Shown here: in pieces, positions 39,397 to 45,627 of the stretch
Layout of the letters: each line of letters opens with the position of its first letter
How positions within the stretch are numbered: position 1 is the stretch's first letter
Source: Acidobacteriales bacterium 59-55
GTDB lineage: Bacteria; Acidobacteriota; Terriglobia; Terriglobales; Acidobacteriaceae
DNA length: 64,000 bases
Assembly: GCA_001897435.1 (NCBI GenBank)
Contig: MKSV01000003.1
Coordinates: 651,250-715,249, forward strand
Direction of reading: 5' to 3'
The notes under the pieces: model-generated
Database searches by the model: none
Told to the model about the DNA's origin: nothing
What the model saw: the letters and a program-made list of their open reading frames with translations, nothing else
Program-made: the position numbers and the translations under genes

Positions 39397-39426
39397 TACC
39401 TCGATATCTCCTCCAAAATTCAAACG

Positions 39427-39490
39427 CACGTCATCTCGACCGAAGGCGTGCAGTTTTGTCGCGCGCCGCAGCGGAAAGCCCCTTGTATTT
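39427..39490 (+). repeat. REP-like family A (diverged)
   Basis: CGTCATCTCGACC head, CCCTTGTATTT tail. Confidence 0.7.
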
Positions 39491-39718
39491 CGCCTCTATC
39501 GCAGCGCCAGCCTTCCTTAGTTTATGGTTGAATCATGCCGTCCCTTTGAAGGTCCGCATGAGGCTGGCCATCACTGTTTTAGCAGGTGACCGCAGAGGTG
39601 TCCAAAGAAAAGTGGACACCTCTCGGTTTTACTATCGCGTTGGGCGCTCTTGGCTGCATCGCTTCTTGGGATGCGAGCGGGCCACCGGGGTTGTCTCTGC
39701 CCACGGCAGCCCCGGTTT

Positions 39719-39922: not shown

Positions 39923-40902
39923 CACCTTCTCTTTCACCGAAACACCTCCTGTACACAGGACTACCACCAAAAAGCAGAGCGCCCCACCAAGGCCGAGCCA
40001 AGCTCCGGGGCTACCCGGCACCCCAGCCGACGCGGGCGAGTACCCGCGTGAGGCATGGGCGGCAGTACCAGCCCCGTGGGATGAGCGAGCGGAAGTACAC
40101 CAGCGCCGAGCGCTGATGGCAATGTGGGCAAGTGGCGACGATGCGATGAGACGACATGATGAACCCCCCCTAGGGCTGATTGCCCGGTATGGTTTCCCCC
40201 ACTGCATGGAGTCAAGGCGGGCGGCTTTATCGCCCCCGCGTGAGCGGCGCGGAGCGGCCTTGACCCATGCGGCATAGTGGGGGAACCGGGCAACAGCCTT
40301 TATCCGGGGGCAGGGCGAAGCCGTGAGGCCCCCTTGCGGGGCCGAAGCTGTTGCCGTTGCTGTTGCCGTTGCCTTTGCCTTTGCTGTTGCTTTGCGGCGG
40401 GGCGAAGCCGCGTAGCGGCGAGGTTGGTTTTTGCCGCGAAGCGGGCCGGAGCGGGGCTTTGCGGCGCGGAGGCCCCCGCCGAAGGCGGGAGGGCGACGCC
40501 GGGCCGCGCGGGGCGAGCGAAGCGGGGGCGTGGTGGGCCGCGCGGCACGGCGGGAGGCGTAGCCGGGAGCGAACGCCGTACTGTGGCGTGAGCGGAGGCC
40601 CAGCCGACGCCGGGACCGGCTGCGGGGCGAAGCGCAGCGGAGCAGTGCTGCGCGAGAGCGCAGAGCATGGCGCGTGACGCGGGCACTATCGCGGCGCGTG
40701 ACGTGCGGCACCGGGGCAGGGGACCCGCCGCAGCCGGACAGCCTGCCCGGGCCGCGCGGACGAAGCGCAGCGGAGGAGCACGACCGGGCACACAGATTGC
40801 CTGTAAACATCCGGGGCTTCCAGACCATCGGAGTTGCAAGACACTGCCGCTCCGGGTGCGCGGTCGAGCCGCGCCAGCCTCAGAAGCGTCCAGATGCACG
40901 AA

Positions 40903-41073: not shown

Positions 41074-41292
41074 TCAGCGTCCTGCTGCGACCGCGTGAAG
41101 CGCGGTAGGTTGAGTGGGTGCCTTGGCCTGGCGCGGGTGTGTCCAGTCCGGGGCGTGGTTGTGGTGCATCGCTGGCACGACGGCGATGGGCTTGGACGGC
41201 TTTTTTTCGTGGGGCCAGATGGCCGCCGCGACCTCATCGCCGACGACGCAGAAGCACGTCATGCAGCCAGGCACGAAGCCGACGACGCGCAC
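41074..41292 (-). CDS. Possible 72-aa hypothetical protein (element cargo)
   Basis: GTG overlapping the upstream stop (TAGTG); fills the gap in the operon. Confidence 0.35.
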   Translation of the reverse strand: MRVVGFVPGCMTCFCVVGDEVAAAIWPHEKKPSKPIAVVPAMHHNHAPDWTHPRQAKAPTQPTALHAVAAGR

Positions 41293-41582
41293 TAGCGGCG
41301 CTCCGGCGCGTCCGCTGCGGTGATCCAGAGCCGGGCCGCCTTCACCAGTTGCTGCGACTCTCTGATTGTGATGAGGTGAAGCTCGATGCCGCGCACCACG
41401 GTTGCGAGATACGCTTGCACGGACACCCGGCTCTCCAAGATGGGCATGTTCATGCGATAGGCGACTCGCGCCGCTTCGTTGGCGGCCCGCTGATCGCCGC
41501 CACATTCTACGATGCAGCGGCAGGCCTGGGCCGCCGCCTTCACTGCGAGGTGGACAGCCTCCGCGATGGTTGGTTCGTTCAT
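41292..41582 (-). CDS. 96-aa helical hypothetical protein (element cargo)
   Basis: ATGA overlap with integrase stop; GGAGG SD. Confidence 0.7.
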   Translation of the reverse strand: MNEPTIAEAVHLAVKAAAQACRCIVECGGDQRAANEAARVAYRMNMPILESRVSVQAYLATVVRGIELHLITIRESQQLVKAARLWITAADAPERR

Positions 41583-42585
41583 TGGATTGCCTCCGTGTGT
41601 GGGTTGAGTTTGGCGAGTTCGAGGATGGATGGCTCGACCGGCGTGGCGTGGTGGTCGAGGTAGATGAGCGTTGTTTGCAGGTCTTTGTGTCCGAGGACCG
41701 CTTGCACTTTACGGAGGTCGCGCGTCAGGTCGTAGACGCGCGCCGCCGTGGTGCGGCGTAGATCGTGCGAGGTGAGTTGCTTGGTGATCCCACACTCTTT
41801 GCGCAGTTTGTTGAAAGCGAGACTGAGTGACGATGCGGTGTTGTGACCGCGCGGACTCATCTGCGAGACGTAGGAGGTGATGCGGTCCGTTGTGTAGAGC
41901 GCGAACATTGCCGCGAGTTCGGCCGTGACTGGCAGCGTGAGCCGGTTCTGGTACTTGGTGGAGAAGGTAATCTCCCGGCGCTCGGAGTCGTAGTTGTTTG
42001 GACAGATGGCCGCCGCCGTGCTCTTTCGCAGGGCGAGGTCCGAACACAAGAGGATGTAGCAGCGCAGATGCAGCGGCGCGCGGCGCAGCAGCATCTCTCG
42101 CTCTTTGCCGGTGGCAGTGATGGCGCGCGGCGATGGACGTGTGACCTTGGGCACGTCGGCGAGCAGCGTATAGCTTGCGCCGTGCCGCTCGACCAGCCAG
42201 CGGATGATTTTCTTGAGGCACTGCGCGCGCTTGTAGCGAGTGTCGGCCGCGAGTTTTTGATACATCGCAGCGGCGCTCAGTACATCGGCTCGGCTGAGGT
42301 CGCGTACCTGCGTGTATCCTGCCGAGGCTATGAGGTACTTTGCCGAGGAGCCGGTGTGCGTGTGCCAGACGCCGCGCGCTTCGTTTTGACACGCGAACCA
42401 CGCCGTAAGCTCGGCGAGGACGACTCGCGCGACTGTCGGACCCCGCCTTTCCGTTTTGGGCGCGCCGCGCTCTTTCGCTCCTCTTCGTACTGCCGTGCAT
42501 CGTCTTCCGTTGTGAATGCCTTGCGGCGACGAACGCCGCGCCGGTCGCGCCAATCTGCATAGAAGCGATTGTCTTTCTGGTACAT
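41579..42585 (-). CDS. Tyrosine recombinase/integrase, two frames joined by predicted -1 frameshift (about 335 aa)
   Basis: Frame A (42585-42328) Arm-like MYQKDNRFYADWRDRRGVRRRKAF with GAGGTG SD; frame B LALRKS, HDLRRT, LGH, TTLIY catalytic set. Confidence 0.85.
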
Positions 42586-42648
42586 GGACACCTCTGGACA
42601 CCTGAGCGGCGCTGTGCAGCCGCGCCTCCCTTGGTTTATCGTCAGTTC

Positions 42649-45627
42649 ATGCCGTCCCTTTGGACCCCTCCTAATTGGCCACAGCGCCTTGCCGAACTTC
42701 AAGCCCCTACCGGAGACCTGAAAGAAGCCCCTTTACGACGTGATGTGCGTTCCCTCGGCGCCCTCCTCGGAGGCGTCCTGCGCGAGCAGGCGGGCGATGC
42801 CCTCTACGACGCCGTCGAAGCCCTCCGCCGCACCGCCATCGCCCGACGCGAGGCCGACGCCCGAGGCGACTCCAAAGCCGCCGCCGCGCACCTCGAAGAG
42901 GCTCTGGAGCGCGTCGCCGCGCTCGATCTCCCTTCCGCCTATCGCCTCGCCCGCGCCTTTGGCTTCTACTTCGAGCTCATCAACCTCGCCGAGACCAATC
43001 ACCGCAAGCGCCGCCGCCTGGCCATCCAGCTCGATCCCAACGCCGCCCCACAGCGCGGCGACCTGCGCGGAACCCTCCGCCGCCTGCGCGAGGCCGGCCT
43101 CGACGCCGCCCAGGCCTACGATCTGCTCCGCCGCATCTGCATCACGCCCGTCTTCACCGCGCACCCCACCGAGGTCGCCCGGCGCTCGGTCATGTTCAAG
43201 CGCCGCCGCATATCCGACCTGCTCGAACAGCTCGACCGCATCCCGGTGCCGAACGCCCATCTCGAATCGCTCGAGCGCGACCTCACCGCCGAGATCACCG
43301 CGCTCTGGCAGACCGACGACGTGCGCAGCGCCCGCCCCACCGTCCGTGACGAGATGCGCATGGCCCTCGACTACTACGAGACCAGCCTCTTCGACACCCT
43401 GCCCGTGCTCTACTCCGAGGTCGCCGCCGCGCTCGCCGAAGAGTACCCCGAATCCGCGGGTGAAAGCTCTGTTAAGGGCACGGCTTCAGCCCTGCCGGAA
43501 GCCACAACCAATAAAGGGGCTTTAGCCCCCGAGGGACACCCCCGCGCCATCTCCGATCTGCCCCAACTCGTCAGCTTCGGCTCCTGGATCGGCGGCGACC
43601 GCGACGGCAATCCCTTCGTCATCGCCGATGTCACCCGCGACGCCCTGGCCCTGGCGCAGAACCTTCTGCTCAACCACTACCGCCGCCGCCTGCAGAACGT
43701 CTTCGAGCAGCTCGGCAGCTCCGTCCAGCAGGTACCCGTCTCCGCCGCGGTCACCGCGCAGCTCGACCTCTACCTCGACCGTCTGCGCTCCGCCGGCCAG
43801 ACCACGCTCGAAGAGCGCTTCCCCCACGAGCGCCTCCGTTTGCTCATCGCCTGCATCATGATGCGGCTGGGAGCGACCCCGCAGTCCGGCCTGCCGCTTC
43901 CCTCCGAGCCCGCACTCACCCCCTACACCCGCGCCGCCGACCTGCTCGCCGACCTTGCACTGCTGCGCGGCAGCCTCGCCGAAAACCACGGCCACCGCCT
44001 GGCGCAGATGCTCATCGACCCGCTGCTGATCGAGGTCCGCACCTACGGCCTTCACCTCCAAACGCTCGACATCCGCCAGCACGCCCGTTTTCACTCCGCC
44101 GCCATCGCCGAAATTCTGGGCGAAGCATCACGGGAGGCGGGATCACAAACCCTCCAGCTCCCCCCAGCCCTCAGCCCGCAGACCACCGAGGTCCTCAACA
44201 CCTTCCGCGCCATCGCCGAGCTCAAGCAGGCCTACGCGCCCGAGTCCATCCAGCAGTACGTCATCAGCGGCGCAACCTCGGCCACCGACATCCTCGACGT
44301 GCTCCAGCTCGCCCGCCTCGGCGGCGTCAAGGTCGAGGGCGACCCCGGCCTTGGCGACCCCGGCCTGCAACCCGTCCCGCTCTTCGAGTACATCGAAGAC
44401 CTGCAGAACGCGCCCGCCGTCATGCGCCGGCTCTGGACCAGCGAAGCCTACAGGCCCCTGCTCGAAAGCTGGAACTACCGCCAGGAGGTCATGCTCGGCT
44501 ACTCCGACTCGAACAAGGACGGCGGCATGATCTCAAGCACCTGGGAGATCTACAAAGCTCACCGCGCCCTGCACCAGGTCGCCCGCGAGTGCGGCGTCCA
44601 TCTGCGCCTCTTCCACGGCCGCGGCGGCACCGTGGGCCGCGGCGGCGGCCCCACGCATCGCGCCATCTTCGCCCAGCCCATCGACAGCTTCACCGGCGAG
44701 CTTCGCCTCACCGAACAAGGCGAAGTCCTCAACTGGAAATACTCCGACGTCGTCCTCGCCGAGCGCAATCTGGAGTTGATGATCGCCGCCTCGCTCGACG
44801 CCATCGCCCGCCCGGACGCAAAGATCCAGGCCGCACAACCAGCAACCGGCAATCAACAACCAGCAACCGGCAACCAGCAACCAAATCCCGCCCCCCACCT
44901 CACCGGCGAGATTCTCCCCGAATGGGAGGCCGCGCTCGACGAGCTTTCGGCCACCTCCCGCGCCTTCTACCGCAAACACATCATCGACAACCCGGACACC
45001 TTCACCTACTTCGAGCAGTCCACGCCGGTCGCCGAACTCGAGCACGCCCGCCTCGGCTCCCGCCCCTCCAAGCGCAGCAAGAAGAAGTCCATGGACGACC
45101 TCCGCGCCATCCCCTGGGTCTTCGGCTGGATGCAGTCCCGCCAGCTCGTTCCCGCATACTTCGGCGTCGGCCACGCCCTCGAACTCTTCGTCAAGGAGCA
45201 CACCGATGGCCTCGCCCTGCTCCAGACCATGACCCGCTCCTTCCCGCTCTTTCTCGACATCGTCCGCAACGTCGAGATGGCGCTGGCCAAGGCCGACTTC
45301 GGCATCGCCCGCCTCTATGCCTCGCTGGTCGAGGACGCCGCCCTGCGCGACCGCGTCTTCACCACCCTCGAAGCAGAGTTCGACCTCACCCTGCGCATGA
45401 TCCTCGCCATCACCGGGCAGAAGGCGCTGCTCGAGACCAACCCCGTGCTCGAACGCTCCATCCGCCTGCGCAATCCCTACGTCGATCCCATGTCGCTGAT
45501 CCAGGTCGAGCTGATCCGCCGCAAGCGCGCCTTAATGGCCGCAGGCAAGCCCGACTCGCCCGAGCTGAACCGCGCCATCTCGGCCACCATCAACGGCATC
45601 AGCTCCGGCCTCCGCAACACCGGCTGA
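42649..45627 (+). CDS. ppc: Phosphoenolpyruvate carboxylase
   Basis: VFTAHPTE, SWIGGDRDGNP, QEVMLGYSDSNKDGG, FHGRGGTVGRGGGP, LRAIPWVFGW, LRNPY, GLRNTG. Confidence 0.97.
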   Translation: MPSLWTPPNWPQRLAELQAPTGDLKEAPLRRDVRSLGALLGGVLREQAGDALYDAVEALRRTAIARREADARGDSKAAAAHLEEALERVAALDLPSAYRLARAFGFYFELINLAETNHRKRRRLAIQLDPNAAPQRGDLRGTLRRLREAGLDAAQAYDLLRRICITPVFTAHPTEVARRSVMFKRRRISDLLEQLDRIPVPNAHLESLERDLTAEITALWQTDDVRSARPTVRDEMRMALDYYETSLFDTLPVLYSEVAAALAEEYPESAGESSVKGTASALPEATTNKGALAPEGHPRAISDLPQLVSFGSWIGGDRDGNPFVIADVTRDALALAQNLLLNHYRRRLQNVFEQLGSSVQQVPVSAAVTAQLDLYLDRLRSAGQTTLEERFPHERLRLLIACIMMRLGATPQSGLPLPSEPALTPYTRAADLLADLALLRGSLAENHGHRLAQMLIDPLLIEVRTYGLHLQTLDIRQHARFHSAAIAEILGEASREAGSQTLQLPPALSPQTTEVLNTFRAIAELKQAYAPESIQQYVISGATSATDILDVLQLARLGGVKVEGDPGLGDPGLQPVPLFEYIEDLQNAPAVMRRLWTSEAYRPLLESWNYRQEVMLGYSDSNKDGGMISSTWEIYKAHRALHQVARECGVHLRLFHGRGGTVGRGGGPTHRAIFAQPIDSFTGELRLTEQGEVLNWKYSDVVLAERNLELMIAASLDAIARPDAKIQAAQPATGNQQPATGNQQPNPAPHLTGEILPEWEAALDELSATSRAFYRKHIIDNPDTFTYFEQSTPVAELEHARLGSRPSKRSKKKSMDDLRAIPWVFGWMQSRQLVPAYFGVGHALELFVKEHTDGLALLQTMTRSFPLFLDIVRNVEMALAKADFGIARLYASLVEDAALRDRVFTTLEAEFDLTLRMILAITGQKALLETNPVLERSIRLRNPYVDPMSLIQVELIRRKRALMAAGKPDSPELNRAISATINGISSGLRNTG
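43473..43534 (+). repeat. Palindromic REP-like element lying in frame inside ppc
   Basis: GGCACGGC-TTCA-GCCCTGCC and GGGGCT-TT-AGCCCC hairpins; related intergenic copy at about 57905-57972. Confidence 0.65.

What the first reader, a model, noticed from the sequence alone, without database searches (positions are those of the whole stretch)
42328..42585. Integrase apparently made by programmed -1 ribosomal frameshifting
The SD-led frame (42585-42328, 85 aa) encodes an Arm-like domain, while the core-binding and catalytic domains are in the -1 frame. At the domain boundary is an in-phase slippery heptamer C-CCA-AAA (42460-42454), a 6-nt spacer, and a stem-loop GGCGGGG..CGAC/GUCG..CCUCGCC (42447-42413). 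This is the canonical -1 PRF layout. Slippage gives a 335-aa integrase (...ARPK-TERRGPTVARVVLAEL). IS1/IS3 transposases use this logic (established), but it is unusual for tyrosine integrases. The short Arm-only product could compete for arm sites as a repressor or directionality factor (inference).
Basis: partly seen in the sequence, partly recalled or inferred. Interest (0 to 1): 0.8.

Follow-up and report, generated by a model that had tools for sequence, protein, structure and literature searches.

The report
Frameshift-made integrase of mini integrative elements
The integrase of a 3.1-kb mobile element in this soil acidobacterium is split between two reading frames at a slippery sequence followed by an RNA hairpin. 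The same split is kept in about 50 distant relatives, so the enzyme is almost certainly made by programmed -1 ribosomal frameshifting, which I could not find reported for this class of recombinase.

Summary
An 85-codon frame (42585-42328, minus strand) encodes a 44-residue N-terminal domain. The core-binding and catalytic domains of a tyrosine integrase lie in the -1 frame. C_CCA_AAA (42460-42454) sits in phase at the boundary, with a stem-loop 6 nt downstream.

It is not an indel or a sequencing error. Fifty of 53 homologous loci from other Acidobacteriota (27-53% identity) show the -1 switch outright. The other three have it too, plus a second indel further down. Forty-nine carry an in-phase X_XXA_AAN-type heptamer at codons 38-55, against about 0.02 expected per locus. 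The downstream stem shows compensatory changes in 8 of 9 pairs. Thirty-eight of 49 loci have no start codon that could open the integrase frame. In 1.84 billion proteins the N-domain occurs only in short ORFs.

The fused 335-residue product folds confidently (pLDDT 87) as a three-domain, lambda-Int-like integrase with all catalytic residues. The junction lies in a disordered linker.

The elements are 2.7-4.1 kb and are flanked by different direct repeats. A congeneric genome has the empty site.

Best reading: programmed -1 frameshifting yields a short arm-domain protein and the full integrase, as in IS1 and IS3 but on a tyrosine recombinase. This is a new variant of a known kind. No experiment or read check was possible.

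The parts
42454..42585 (-). Frame-0 coding part: the 44-residue N-terminal domain (beta-beta-beta-alpha), a candidate arm-type DNA-binding domain. It ends with the P and K codons of the heptamer.
   Evidence: Translation. AF2 gives E2-4, E7-13, E19-24, H27-40 with pLDDT 91-97. A10, D11, W12, R13, D14, G17, R19 and A30 are invariant in 47 sequences.
42328..42453 (-). Frame-0 tail read when the ribosome does not shift: 41 Arg/Ser-rich codons and the stop. It is not conserved.
   Evidence: Across loci the tail after the site is 7-140 codons long, median 53. The ten longest N-domain ORFs of the top 150 in metagenomes have no Pfam domain.
42454..42460 (-). Slippery heptamer C_CCA_AAA in the X_XXY_YYZ phase of frame 0.
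   Evidence: The same heptamer is at codon 41-44 in 34 loci; AAAAAAA in 7, CCCAAAC in 3, AAAAAAC in 3. CCA-AAA is used in 34 of 34, against 13% expected from codon use elsewhere in the genes. V_VV.A_AA.R motifs are in the efficient class in E. coli (PMC4066793).
42448..42453 (-). 6-nt spacer (CGGAAA) between the heptamer and the stem.
   Evidence: The spacer is 5 nt in the main group of homologues.
42413..42447 (-). Stimulatory stem-loop: GGCGGGG / CCUCGCC (7 bp, one G-U) enclosing an inner 4-bp helix.
   Evidence: Folds (-18.4 kcal/mol, best 8% of windows in the gene). In 34 aligned loci the family stem has 84% of cells paired against 71% when shuffled. Eight of 9 pairs show compensatory change (0 of 500 shuffles). 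Slid controls give 40-60% paired.
41579..42454 (-). -1 frame part: linker, four-helix core-binding domain and tyrosine-recombinase catalytic domain, stop codon included.
   Evidence: PF00589. R187, K211, H274, R277, H300 and Y309 are invariant. AF2 and Foldseek match IntI4, Tn1549 Int, XerA and full-length lambda Int.
42585..42602 (-). Two direct GGTGTCCA repeats 10 bp apart, overlapping the SD and the ATG of the integrase. Candidate arm-type or operator sites.
   Evidence: GTGTCC occurs 1.6 times per 84 nt upstream of the ATG in 52 loci, against 0.12 background, often in pairs 10 bp apart.
39597..39620 (.). Inverted pair of GGTGTCCA motifs near the other end of the element.
42624..42662 (.). 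Right attachment repeat. It is perfect over 42647-42662 (TCATGCCGTCCCTTTG) and contains the ATG of ppc.
39510..39548 (.). Left attachment repeat, perfect over 39533-39548. The element spans 3114 bp.
   Evidence: A congeneric genome has the empty site: G311:C41:16100-16688 matches the joined flanks contiguously.
41292..41582 (-). 96-codon ORF overlapping the integrase stop (ATGA). Function unknown.
   Evidence: No Pfam hit. Weak similarity in 3 other elements.

Best explanation
The integrase of a 3.1-kb integrative element inserted at the start codon of ppc is decoded by programmed -1 ribosomal frameshifting.

How it works:
- Ribosomes start at the ATG at 42585 and translate the 44-residue N-terminal domain.
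- At C_CCA_AAA, held up by the stem-loop 6 nt downstream, a fraction of ribosomes slip back one base.
- Those ribosomes continue through a flexible linker into the core-binding and catalytic domains. The product is a 335-residue, three-domain, lambda-Int-like tyrosine integrase.
- Ribosomes that do not slip make an 85-residue protein: the N-domain plus a non-conserved tail.

Shown here:
- The layout in the window.
- Conservation of the layout over a deeply diverged family of about 50 genomic loci and hundreds of metagenomic clusters.
- Covariation in the stem.
- Absence of start codons for the integrase frame.
- An intact catalytic set.
- A confident fold of the fused product.
- Mobility of the elements.

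Inferred:
- That the shift is ribosomal and not made during transcription.
- Its efficiency.
- That the N-domain binds the GGTGTCC repeats at both element ends and over the int ribosome-binding site.
- That the short product therefore acts as an autorepressor or as a competitor at arm sites, setting integrase dose or directionality, as OrfA and InsA do in IS3 and IS1.
For: 1. Frame split. Fifty of 53 loci with both parts have N in frame 0 and CB plus catalytic in -1. The other three also switch at the heptamer and carry a second indel. The set includes isolate genomes (Occallatibacter savannae AB23, Paracidobacterium acidisoli 4G-K13, Terracidiphilus gabretensis S55, strain dw_441) and both Illumina and nanopore MAGs.

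2. Heptamer. Forty-nine of 53 loci have an in-phase heptamer at codons 38-55, against a background of 0.001 per codon. The heptamer type changes at least 5 times on the tree. The 43 family heptamers on the tree are all X_XXA_AAN; off the tree, two loci (L074, L079) carry A_AAC_CCN instead.

3. Stem-loop. Eighty-four per cent of cells are paired. Eight of 9 pairs show compensatory changes and the covariation score is 0.272 against 0.101 (0 of 500 shuffles). Slid controls are far lower. The compensatory changes alter the amino acids encoded on both arms: Gly-Ala-Gly with Leu-Arg-Ala, Gly-Glu-Arg with Leu-Leu-Ala, Gly-Val-Gly with Leu-Asn-Ala. One pair is G-U in 31 of 34 sequences, which fits sense-strand RNA and not a DNA palindrome. 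The site windows fold at -16.7 against -10.4 kcal/mol for other windows of the same genes, median percentile 0.06.

4. No independent start. Thirty-eight of 49 loci have no ATG, GTG or TTG in the -1 frame between its upstream stop and 12 codons past the site. The starts in the other 11 lack an SD, apart from one GTG 121 codons upstream of the int ATG in L079.

5. Fused products. They are 319-388 aa (one outlier of 475) with R-K-HxxR-H-Y invariant. AF2 gives pLDDT 87.3 and pTM 0.72, with the junction in the only low-confidence linker, residues 44-50. Full-length lambda Int aligns over 356 columns.

6. Wider collections. The N-domain profile finds 497 clusters in 1.84 billion proteins. The best 150 are all 47-303 aa, and the ten longest of them tested (191-270 aa) lack PF00589.

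7. Mobility. Direct repeats of 15-55 bp, each of different sequence, flank units of 2.7-4.1 kb. The window's element has an empty site in a congeneric genome.

8. Motif class. C_CC.A_AA.A and A_AA.A_AA.A belong to the efficient V_VV.A_AA.R class in E. coli (PMC4066793).
Against: - There is no experimental or read-level evidence.
- On the window alone the hairpin is no better than shuffles. Its stem is shorter than the family consensus and offset by 1 nt.
- Four loci in the 53-locus set (L038, L066 from an isolate, L067, L080), and L005 from the family scan, lack a canonical heptamer. L005, L038 and L066 keep an A_AAG tetramer five codons upstream.
- A7-type members could shift by RNA polymerase slippage instead.
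- Loci are phylogenetically related, so counts are not independent events.
- The stem was defined by eye on the same sequences used to count pairs.
- The fold search of the isolated N-domain was not significant.
Confidence: 0.85

Rival explanations
1. Programmed transcriptional realignment. RNA polymerase adds one A in the A-run, and a subset of mRNAs then encodes the fused integrase in one frame.
For: Thirteen loci have runs of 6-7 A (AAAAAAA, AAAAAAC). The literature notes that poly-A motifs in mobile elements can serve both mechanisms (PMC3711429; PMC4066793).
Against: The window and 33 other loci have only CCCAAAA, a run of 4 A. From general knowledge, that is far below the lengths known to give useful slippage. 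The conserved, covarying hairpin 5-6 nt downstream and the strict codon phase of the heptamer are features of ribosomal shifting, not of polymerase slippage.
Confidence: 0.06
2. Two separate proteins. A small N-domain DNA-binding protein is made, and an N-terminally shorter integrase starts on its own in the -1 frame, by coupling or at a non-canonical start codon. No fusion is made.
For: Xer-type and Brujita-type recombinases work without an arm domain (hits). Gene callers annotate the two ORFs separately. Solo N-domain ORFs exist.
Against: - Thirty-eight of 49 loci have no ATG, GTG or TTG in the -1 frame before the conserved G-x-T-[VIL]-A start of the core-binding domain. Where a start exists it lacks an SD, apart from one far upstream in L079.
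- Frame-0 stops lie 7-140 codons downstream, with no stop-start overlap pattern.
- The conserved heptamer and hairpin would have no explanation.
- A true single-frame relative (L008) and eight more distant integrases carry the N-domain fused in frame.
Confidence: 0.05
3. An inactivating 1-bp indel or a sequencing error in this genome, or a family of dead integrases mobilised in trans.
For: The shift lies in a short homopolymer. Earlier notes of this scan found other split integrases to be ordinary mutations. A few copies do carry extra indels (L062, L076, L079, P0009).
Against: - The split is at the same position in about 50 loci at 27-53% identity, from isolates and from Illumina and nanopore assemblies.
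- Both halves are otherwise open and conserved, with all catalytic residues.
- The heptamer and stem are under selection.
- Each element has its own att repeat, so each needs its own specificity.
Confidence: 0.02

Closest known systems
IS3- and IS1-family transposase expression (OrfA / OrfAB, InsA / InsAB') by -1 programmed ribosomal frameshifting
   Same: - A mobile-element recombinase split into an upstream DNA-binding ORF and a downstream catalytic ORF in the -1 frame.
- A_AAA_AAN or X_XXA_AAN heptamers and a downstream stem-loop.
- Two products that share the DNA-binding N-terminus.
- The expected consequence is low, fixed dosing of the recombinase and a short competitor or repressor.
   Different: The enzyme here is a tyrosine site-specific recombinase with R-K-HxxR-H-Y, not a DDE transposase. 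The element integrates by att x att recombination and is flanked by 15-55 bp repeats of target sequence, not by terminal inverted repeats with target duplications. The upstream ORF is a beta-beta-beta-alpha domain, not an HTH or zinc-finger OrfA.
Lambda-type (arm-binding) tyrosine integrases: lambda Int, Tn916/Tn1549 Int
   Same: - Three-domain order: N-terminal small DNA-binding domain, four-helix core-binding domain, catalytic domain.
- Structural match of the whole model to full-length lambda Int (1z1b) and to Tn1549 Int.
- Repeated short motifs near both element ends, distinct from the core att repeat.
   Different: Those integrases are encoded in a single frame and use a separate Xis/RDF for directionality. 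Here the N-domain is in another frame, and no recognisable excisionase gene was found in the 3.1-kb element. Arm binding was not tested, and the fold match of the N-domain alone was not significant.
+1 frameshift-dependent activator FseA of ICEMlSymR7A (PMC4755241), and the +1 frameshift in the tyrosine recombinase gene of Euplotes Tec2 transposons (recalled from memory; the paper was not among those retrieved)
   Same: Recoding is used to gate the mobility of an integrative element (FseA). Separately, a tyrosine recombinase needs a frameshift for expression (Tec2).
   Different: FseA is a transcriptional activator, not the integrase, and its shift is +1. Tec2 is eukaryotic, also +1, and belongs to the genome-wide frameshifting habit of Euplotes. 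Neither has a heptamer plus hairpin at a domain boundary.

Membership tests
-1 programmed ribosomal frameshift cassette | Two overlapping ORFs, with the downstream one in the -1 frame and open across the overlap. | tested here: met
   Fifty of 53 homologous loci show it outright. The other three also switch at the heptamer.
-1 programmed ribosomal frameshift cassette | An X_XXY_YYZ heptamer in the phase of the upstream frame inside the overlap. | tested here: met
   C_CCA_AAA at 42460-42454. Present in 49 of 53 loci, against 0.018 expected per 18-codon window.
-1 programmed ribosomal frameshift cassette | A stimulatory RNA structure 5-9 nt downstream that is conserved through compensatory change. 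| tested here: met
   Spacer of 6 nt in the window and 5 nt in most loci. Eight of 9 pairs show change on both sides, 0 of 500 shuffles. Native-window percentile 0.06. A pseudoknot extension was tested and is weak, 60% paired.
-1 programmed ribosomal frameshift cassette | The downstream frame has no initiation of its own. | tested here: met
   Thirty-eight of 49 loci lack any ATG, GTG or TTG in the relevant stretch. The window has only a GTG 5 codons upstream of the frame-0 ATG and a TTG at codon 11. No SD-like motif is visible upstream of either (by eye).
-1 programmed ribosomal frameshift cassette | The transframe protein is detected and depends on the heptamer and the structure. | not testable with these tools
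   Needs a reporter assay or mass spectrometry.
Tyrosine recombinase (Phage_integrase, PF00589) | Catalytic R...K...HxxR...H/W...Y. | tested here: met
   PF00589 at E 1.3e-17. R187, K211, H274, R277, H300 and Y309 are invariant in two alignments.
Lambda-type integrase with arm-binding domain | An N-terminal three-stranded sheet plus helix domain ahead of the core-binding domain. | tested here: inconclusive
   AF2 topology is beta-beta-beta-alpha with pLDDT above 90. Full-length lambda Int aligns over 356 columns. Foldseek of the domain alone gives no significant hit; the Tn916 Int N-domain is at rank 43 with E 6. No Pfam family matches.
Lambda-type integrase with arm-binding domain | Repeated arm-type sites near both ends of the element, distinct from the core. 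| tested here: met
   Four GGTGTCCA motifs lie within 100 bp of the two ends. GTGTCC is enriched 13-fold upstream of int in 52 loci, although their att cores differ. Binding was not tested.
Integrative element (site-specific) | Flanking direct repeats of target sequence, and an empty site in relatives. | tested here: met
   A 16-bp perfect repeat 3114 bp apart. The joined flanks are contiguous in G311.
IS3/IS1 insertion sequences | A DDE transposase and terminal inverted repeats. | tested here: not met
   The catalytic domain is a tyrosine recombinase. The ends are direct att repeats. Only the expression logic is shared.
Programmed transcriptional realignment | A long homopolymer (about 7 or more) at the shift site. 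| tested here: not met
   The window has A4. Only 7 of 53 loci have A7.

The most novel reading that the evidence does not exclude
The frameshift is the element's whole control circuit. The short arm-domain protein is made by most ribosomes. It occupies the GGTGTCC repeats over the int ribosome-binding site and at both element arms. In that way it would act at once as an autorepressor and as a built-in directionality or copy-control factor. A 3-kb element with no separate excisionase could then decide between integration and excision through frameshift efficiency alone. This would extend the OrfA/OrfAB principle from transposases to site-specific integrases. The solo N-domain ORFs beside housekeeping genes could be domesticated or residual regulators of this kind.
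Probability: 0.3. Interest if true: 0.88.

Novelty: new variant of a known kind. Interest (0 to 1): 0.8.

Why it matters
- **A new class for bacterial recoding.** Catalogues are dominated by IS transposases, phage tail chaperones, dnaX and prfB. I found no report of a tyrosine integrase made by -1 frameshifting. The large 2016 review of frameshifting does not mention integrase or recombinase in the part held, and six full-text searches found nothing. One caveat: an earlier unchecked note of this scan (e1-1950031) describes an A8-run slip at the start of an IS integrase in Bacteroidota. It is a different layout.
- **A natural domain separation.** The family splits arm binding from catalysis, so it offers a system to test what an arm-domain-only protein does to integration and excision.
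- **Annotation.** Current pipelines call these genes as a hypothetical small ORF plus an N-terminally wrong or truncated integrase, or would flag them as pseudogenes. Hundreds of active mini integrative elements in soil Acidobacteriota are therefore misread.
- **A compact test system.** The covarying hairpin and the alternating C_CCA_AAA and A_AAA_AAA sites give a natural series for studying frameshift efficiency in a high-G+C phylum.

Tried and rejected
- **Shuffle test of the window's hairpin alone.** z = 0.01. Uninformative in 63% G+C DNA, so I replaced it with native-window and covariation tests.
- **RNAalifold on the MAFFT alignment.** It returned no structure. Several rows are out of register by 1-3 nt. 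The named-structure count was used instead.
- **H-type pseudoknot (loop GCCC with downstream GGGC).** Only 60% of cells pair. Not claimed.
- **Upstream SD-like stimulator.** AAGGA lies 9 nt upstream of the heptamer in 26 of 46 loci, against 3 of 46 in a control window. It coincides with conserved Gln-Lys-Glu codons, and the window lacks it at that distance. Left open.
- **SSV-type split integrase for the N-only copies.** The idea was an attP inside int at the frameshift site. No C-part lies near them, and complete elements have att upstream of int. Rejected.
- **P0009 as a single-frame homologue.** It keeps the heptamer and the -1-frame motif and has a second 1-nt shift near codon 88. It is a damaged copy, not a fusion.
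- **Fold search of the 44-residue N-domain.** No significant hit.
- **Structure prediction with fused homologues.** Solved by aligning unfused N and C fragments to the fused window protein.
- **Cargo genes.** Only int and, weakly, the 96-codon ORF are shared between elements.
Full report
**What is in the window.**

On the minus strand an ATG at 42585 opens an 85-codon frame: MYQKDNRFYADWRDRRGVRRRKAFTTEDDARQYEEERKSAARPK, followed by an Arg/Ser-rich tail that stops at 42328. GAGGTG lies inside a GGTGTCC repeat just upstream of the ATG.

The frame one base back is open from upstream of that ATG down to 41579. It carries the Phage_integrase domain (PF00589, E 1.3e-17; Xer and integron-integrase models).

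Where the two readings change from meaningful to meaningless, the sequence is GCG CGC CCA AAA CGG. That is C_CCA_AAA at 42460-42454 in the X_XXY_YYZ phase of the first frame. A 6-nt spacer follows. Then GGCGGGG (42447-42441) pairs with CCUCGCC (42419-42413) around an inner 4-bp helix.

A -1 slip gives a 335-residue protein with the junction ...SAARPK-TERRGPTVARVVLAEL....

**Is it an accident of this genome?**

The own genome has one copy. I scanned 300 genomes of the same family. I then scanned 185,579 species genomes with a profile of the fused proteins. The second scan gave 64 loci, all Acidobacteriota. They include four isolates and both Illumina and nanopore MAGs.

- Of 53 loci that hold both parts, 50 have the N-terminal part in one frame and the rest in the -1 frame.
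- The three exceptions (L062, L076, L079, all nanopore MAGs) also switch to -1 at a heptamer and then have a second indel further on.
- Nine loci from the family scan, which partly duplicate these, behave the same way.
- Identity to the window protein is 27-53%. On a maximum-likelihood tree the terminal branches have a median of 0.48 changes per site.

A recent indel or a sequencing error is excluded.

**The shift site.**

- Forty-nine of 53 loci have an in-phase X_XXY_YYZ heptamer between codons 38 and 55: CCCAAAA 34, AAAAAAA 7, CCCAAAC 3, AAAAAAC 3, AAACCCT 1 and AAACCCC 1.
- Elsewhere in the same genes the in-phase rate is 14 in 13,804 positions, or 0.018 expected per 18-codon window.
- Pro-Lys at the site is always CCA-AAA in the 34 CCCAAAA loci. 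Elsewhere in those genes CCA is 26% of Pro codons and AAA is 50% of Lys codons.
- On the tree the heptamer type changes at least five times. The 43 family heptamers on the tree all stay within X_XXA_AAN; off the tree, two loci (L074, L079) carry A_AAC_CCN instead.
- In E. coli, V_VV.A_AA.R heptamers are among the most efficient, and C_CC.A_AA.A is listed as shift-prone even without a stimulator (PMC4066793).
- Four loci in this set lack a heptamer. Two of them (L038, L066), and L005 from the family scan, keep CAA_AAG five codons upstream. A_AAG is the best tetramer in that study.

**The hairpin.**

In most loci the heptamer is followed by 5 nt and a 9-bp stem, GGCGCGGGG ... CUCCGCGCC, with a loop of about 18 nt.

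Counted on 34 aligned sequences:

| Measure | Observed | Control |
|---|---|---|
| Cells paired | 84% | 71% after shuffling (0 of 500 as high) |
| Pairs with change on both sides | 8 of 9 | mean 3.7 (0 of 500) |
| Covariation score | 0.272 | 0.101 |
| Cells paired with the 3' arm slid 1-3 columns | - | 40-60% |

- The variants GGCGAGAGG/CCUACUCGCC, GGCGUUGGG/CUCAACGCC and GGCACGG/CCGUGCC change the encoded amino acids on both arms. Selection on the protein does not explain the pairing.
- One pair is G-U in 31 of 34 sequences. That fits an RNA helix on the sense strand and not a DNA palindrome.
- The 48 nt that begin 3 nt after the heptamer fold at a mean of -16.7 kcal/mol, against -10.4 for other windows of the same genes. 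The median percentile is 0.06. The window itself gives -18.4 against -11.0, percentile 0.08.
- The shuffle test on the window alone (z = 0.01) is uninformative at this G+C content.
- A pseudoknot extension was not supported.
- An upstream SD-like AAGGA is frequent but confounded with conserved codons.

**Can the integrase frame start on its own?**

In 38 of 49 loci there is no ATG, GTG or TTG in the -1 frame between its last upstream stop and 12 codons past the site. That stretch lies before the conserved G-x-T-[VIL]-A motif that opens the core-binding domain. In the other 11 loci the start codons mostly lie upstream of the frame-0 ATG. They lack an SD, apart from one GTG 121 codons upstream in L079.

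The frame-0 stop lies 7-140 codons after the site, with no stop-start overlap pattern. Independent initiation or coupling is therefore unlikely.

**Is the fused protein the functional form?**

- The fused products are 319-388 residues (one outlier of 475). R187, K211, H274, R277, H300 and Y309 are invariant.
- The AlphaFold2 alignment joined the fused window protein with unfused N and C fragments from 41 loci. The model has pLDDT 87.3 and pTM 0.72.
- Its parts are a beta-beta-beta-alpha N-domain (residues 2-40, pLDDT 91-97), a linker at 41-51, a four-helix core-binding domain and the catalytic domain.
- Residues 44-50 of the linker fall below pLDDT 50. The frameshift junction lies exactly there.
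- Foldseek finds IntI4, Brujita Int, XerA, Tn1549 Int and full-length lambda Int. The last aligns over 356 columns with TM 0.57.
- The sequence profile aligns to lambda Int from its residue 72. That leaves the N-domain where lambda's arm domain sits.
- One true single-frame relative exists (L008, 30% identity). Eight more distant integrases in the family's genomes align from residue 5-41 to about residue 316 in a single frame. So the three-domain polypeptide is the normal architecture.
- P0009 looked like a single-frame homologue. It is a damaged copy with a second shift.
- In 1.84 billion representative proteins the N-domain profile finds 497 clusters. The best 150 are all 47-303 residues. 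The ten longest of them that I scanned (191-270 residues) have no integrase domain.

**The element.**

- A 16-bp perfect direct repeat lies at 39533-39548 and 42647-42662, inside 39-nt copies that are 82% alike. It bounds 3114 bp and contains the ATG of ppc.
- The joined flanks are contiguous in a congeneric genome (G311, 74% identity over 594 nt). The element is therefore an insertion.
- At least 15 other loci have flanking repeats of 15-55 bp. Each repeat has a different sequence, one is a tRNA 3' end, and the units are 2.7-4.1 kb. This is a family of mini integrative elements with diversified core specificities, which argues that their integrases work.
- GGTGTCCA occurs four times in the element, all within 100 bp of its ends. 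Two copies 10 bp apart overlap the SD and the ATG of int.
- GTGTCC is enriched 13-fold upstream of int in 52 loci, although their att cores differ. That is what conserved arm-type sites read by the conserved N-domain would look like. Binding was not tested, and the isolated N-domain gave no significant fold match.

**Mechanism and rivals.**

Best reading (confidence 0.85): -1 programmed ribosomal frameshifting yields a short N-domain protein and the full integrase in a fixed ratio.

- Transcriptional slippage (0.06) is possible for the A7 members. It is unlikely for the A4 of the window and of most loci, and it would not need a phased heptamer or a hairpin.
- Two separate proteins (0.05) conflicts with the lack of start codons.
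- A mutation, a sequencing error or a dead family (0.02) conflicts with the conservation.

The regulatory role of the short product is inference by analogy with IS1 and IS3. It could repress int at the sites over its RBS, or compete at the arms.

**Comparison and novelty.**

The logic is that of IS3 OrfA/OrfAB and IS1 InsA/InsAB'. The enzyme, however, is a lambda-type tyrosine integrase and the element moves by att recombination. It is therefore not a member of those families.

Six full-text searches and three targeted reads found no report of frameshift-dependent bacterial tyrosine integrases. The nearest themes are the +1 frameshift in the ICEMlSymR7A activator FseA (PMC4755241), and, from memory, the +1 frameshift in the Euplotes Tec2 recombinase. 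An earlier unchecked note of this scan describes an A8-run slip at the start of an IS integrase in Bacteroidota. That is a different layout. I class this finding as a new variant of a known kind.

**Limits.**

- No experiment was possible.
- The loci are related, so counts are not independent events.
- The stem was defined on the same sequences on which it was counted.

Noticed in passing
window 39420-39495: A stretch of about 70 nt in the left flank of the element (...ACGCACGTCATCTCGACCGAAGGCGTGCAGTTTTGTCGCGCGCCGCAGCGG...) recurs at 80-90% identity in dozens of places. It is found in the own genome and in three congeneric genomes (G184, G311, G315). It looks like a REP- or MITE-like dispersed repeat.
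   Followed up: no
L029:1498-1620, L030:1498-1620, L085:3001-3120, L088:2995-3120, L092:3001-3105: These are ORFs that hold only the N-domain, several of them with GTGTCC-type motifs upstream. They sit directly 5' of housekeeping genes (deoC, cutA, a pyruvate-dehydrogenase E1-like gene, purE) and read into them. No integrase C-part lies nearby. They could be decay remnants at old integration sites or free-standing arm-domain genes.
   Followed up: partly
window 39510-39548 and 42624-42662: The similarity between the two att regions extends 23 nt beyond the perfect 16-bp core, 82% over 39 nt. The element therefore carries a look-alike of the ppc leader. After insertion, ppc is preceded by element-borne leader sequence.
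   Followed up: no
window 40300-40800: A block of 70-78% G+C inside the element is full of short direct repeats (GGCGAAGCCG-like, GCCGTTGCTGTT x3). It has no ORF conserved in other elements.
   Followed up: no
L039:2865-2920 (Acidobacteriaceae bacterium dw_441): A family member in the window's own genus is flanked by a 55-bp direct repeat that looks like the 3' end of a tRNA gene (...GGTTCGATCCCTGCC...CCA). Target choice in the family therefore ranges from tRNA genes to the 5' ends of protein genes.
   Followed up: no
L062, L076, L079, L096 (P0009): Four copies keep the heptamer and the -1 switch but carry a second 1-nt frame change 45-140 codons further on. Three are from nanopore MAGs. The fourth (P0009) is reported on two records, a JGI and a Logan assembly; I read only the JGI one (L096). 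They are decaying copies or homopolymer errors.
   Followed up: partly
window 42462-42480 and homologous loci: An SD-like AAGGA lies 9 nt upstream of the heptamer in 26 of 46 loci, against 3 of 46 in a control window. It coincides with conserved Gln-Lys-Glu codons. The window has GAGGAG 17 nt upstream instead. It may be a third frameshift stimulator, as in dnaX.
   Followed up: partly
window 41579-41582: The integrase stop overlaps the start of a 96-codon ORF (ATGA). That ORF has no family match and only weak similarity in three other elements.
   Followed up: partly
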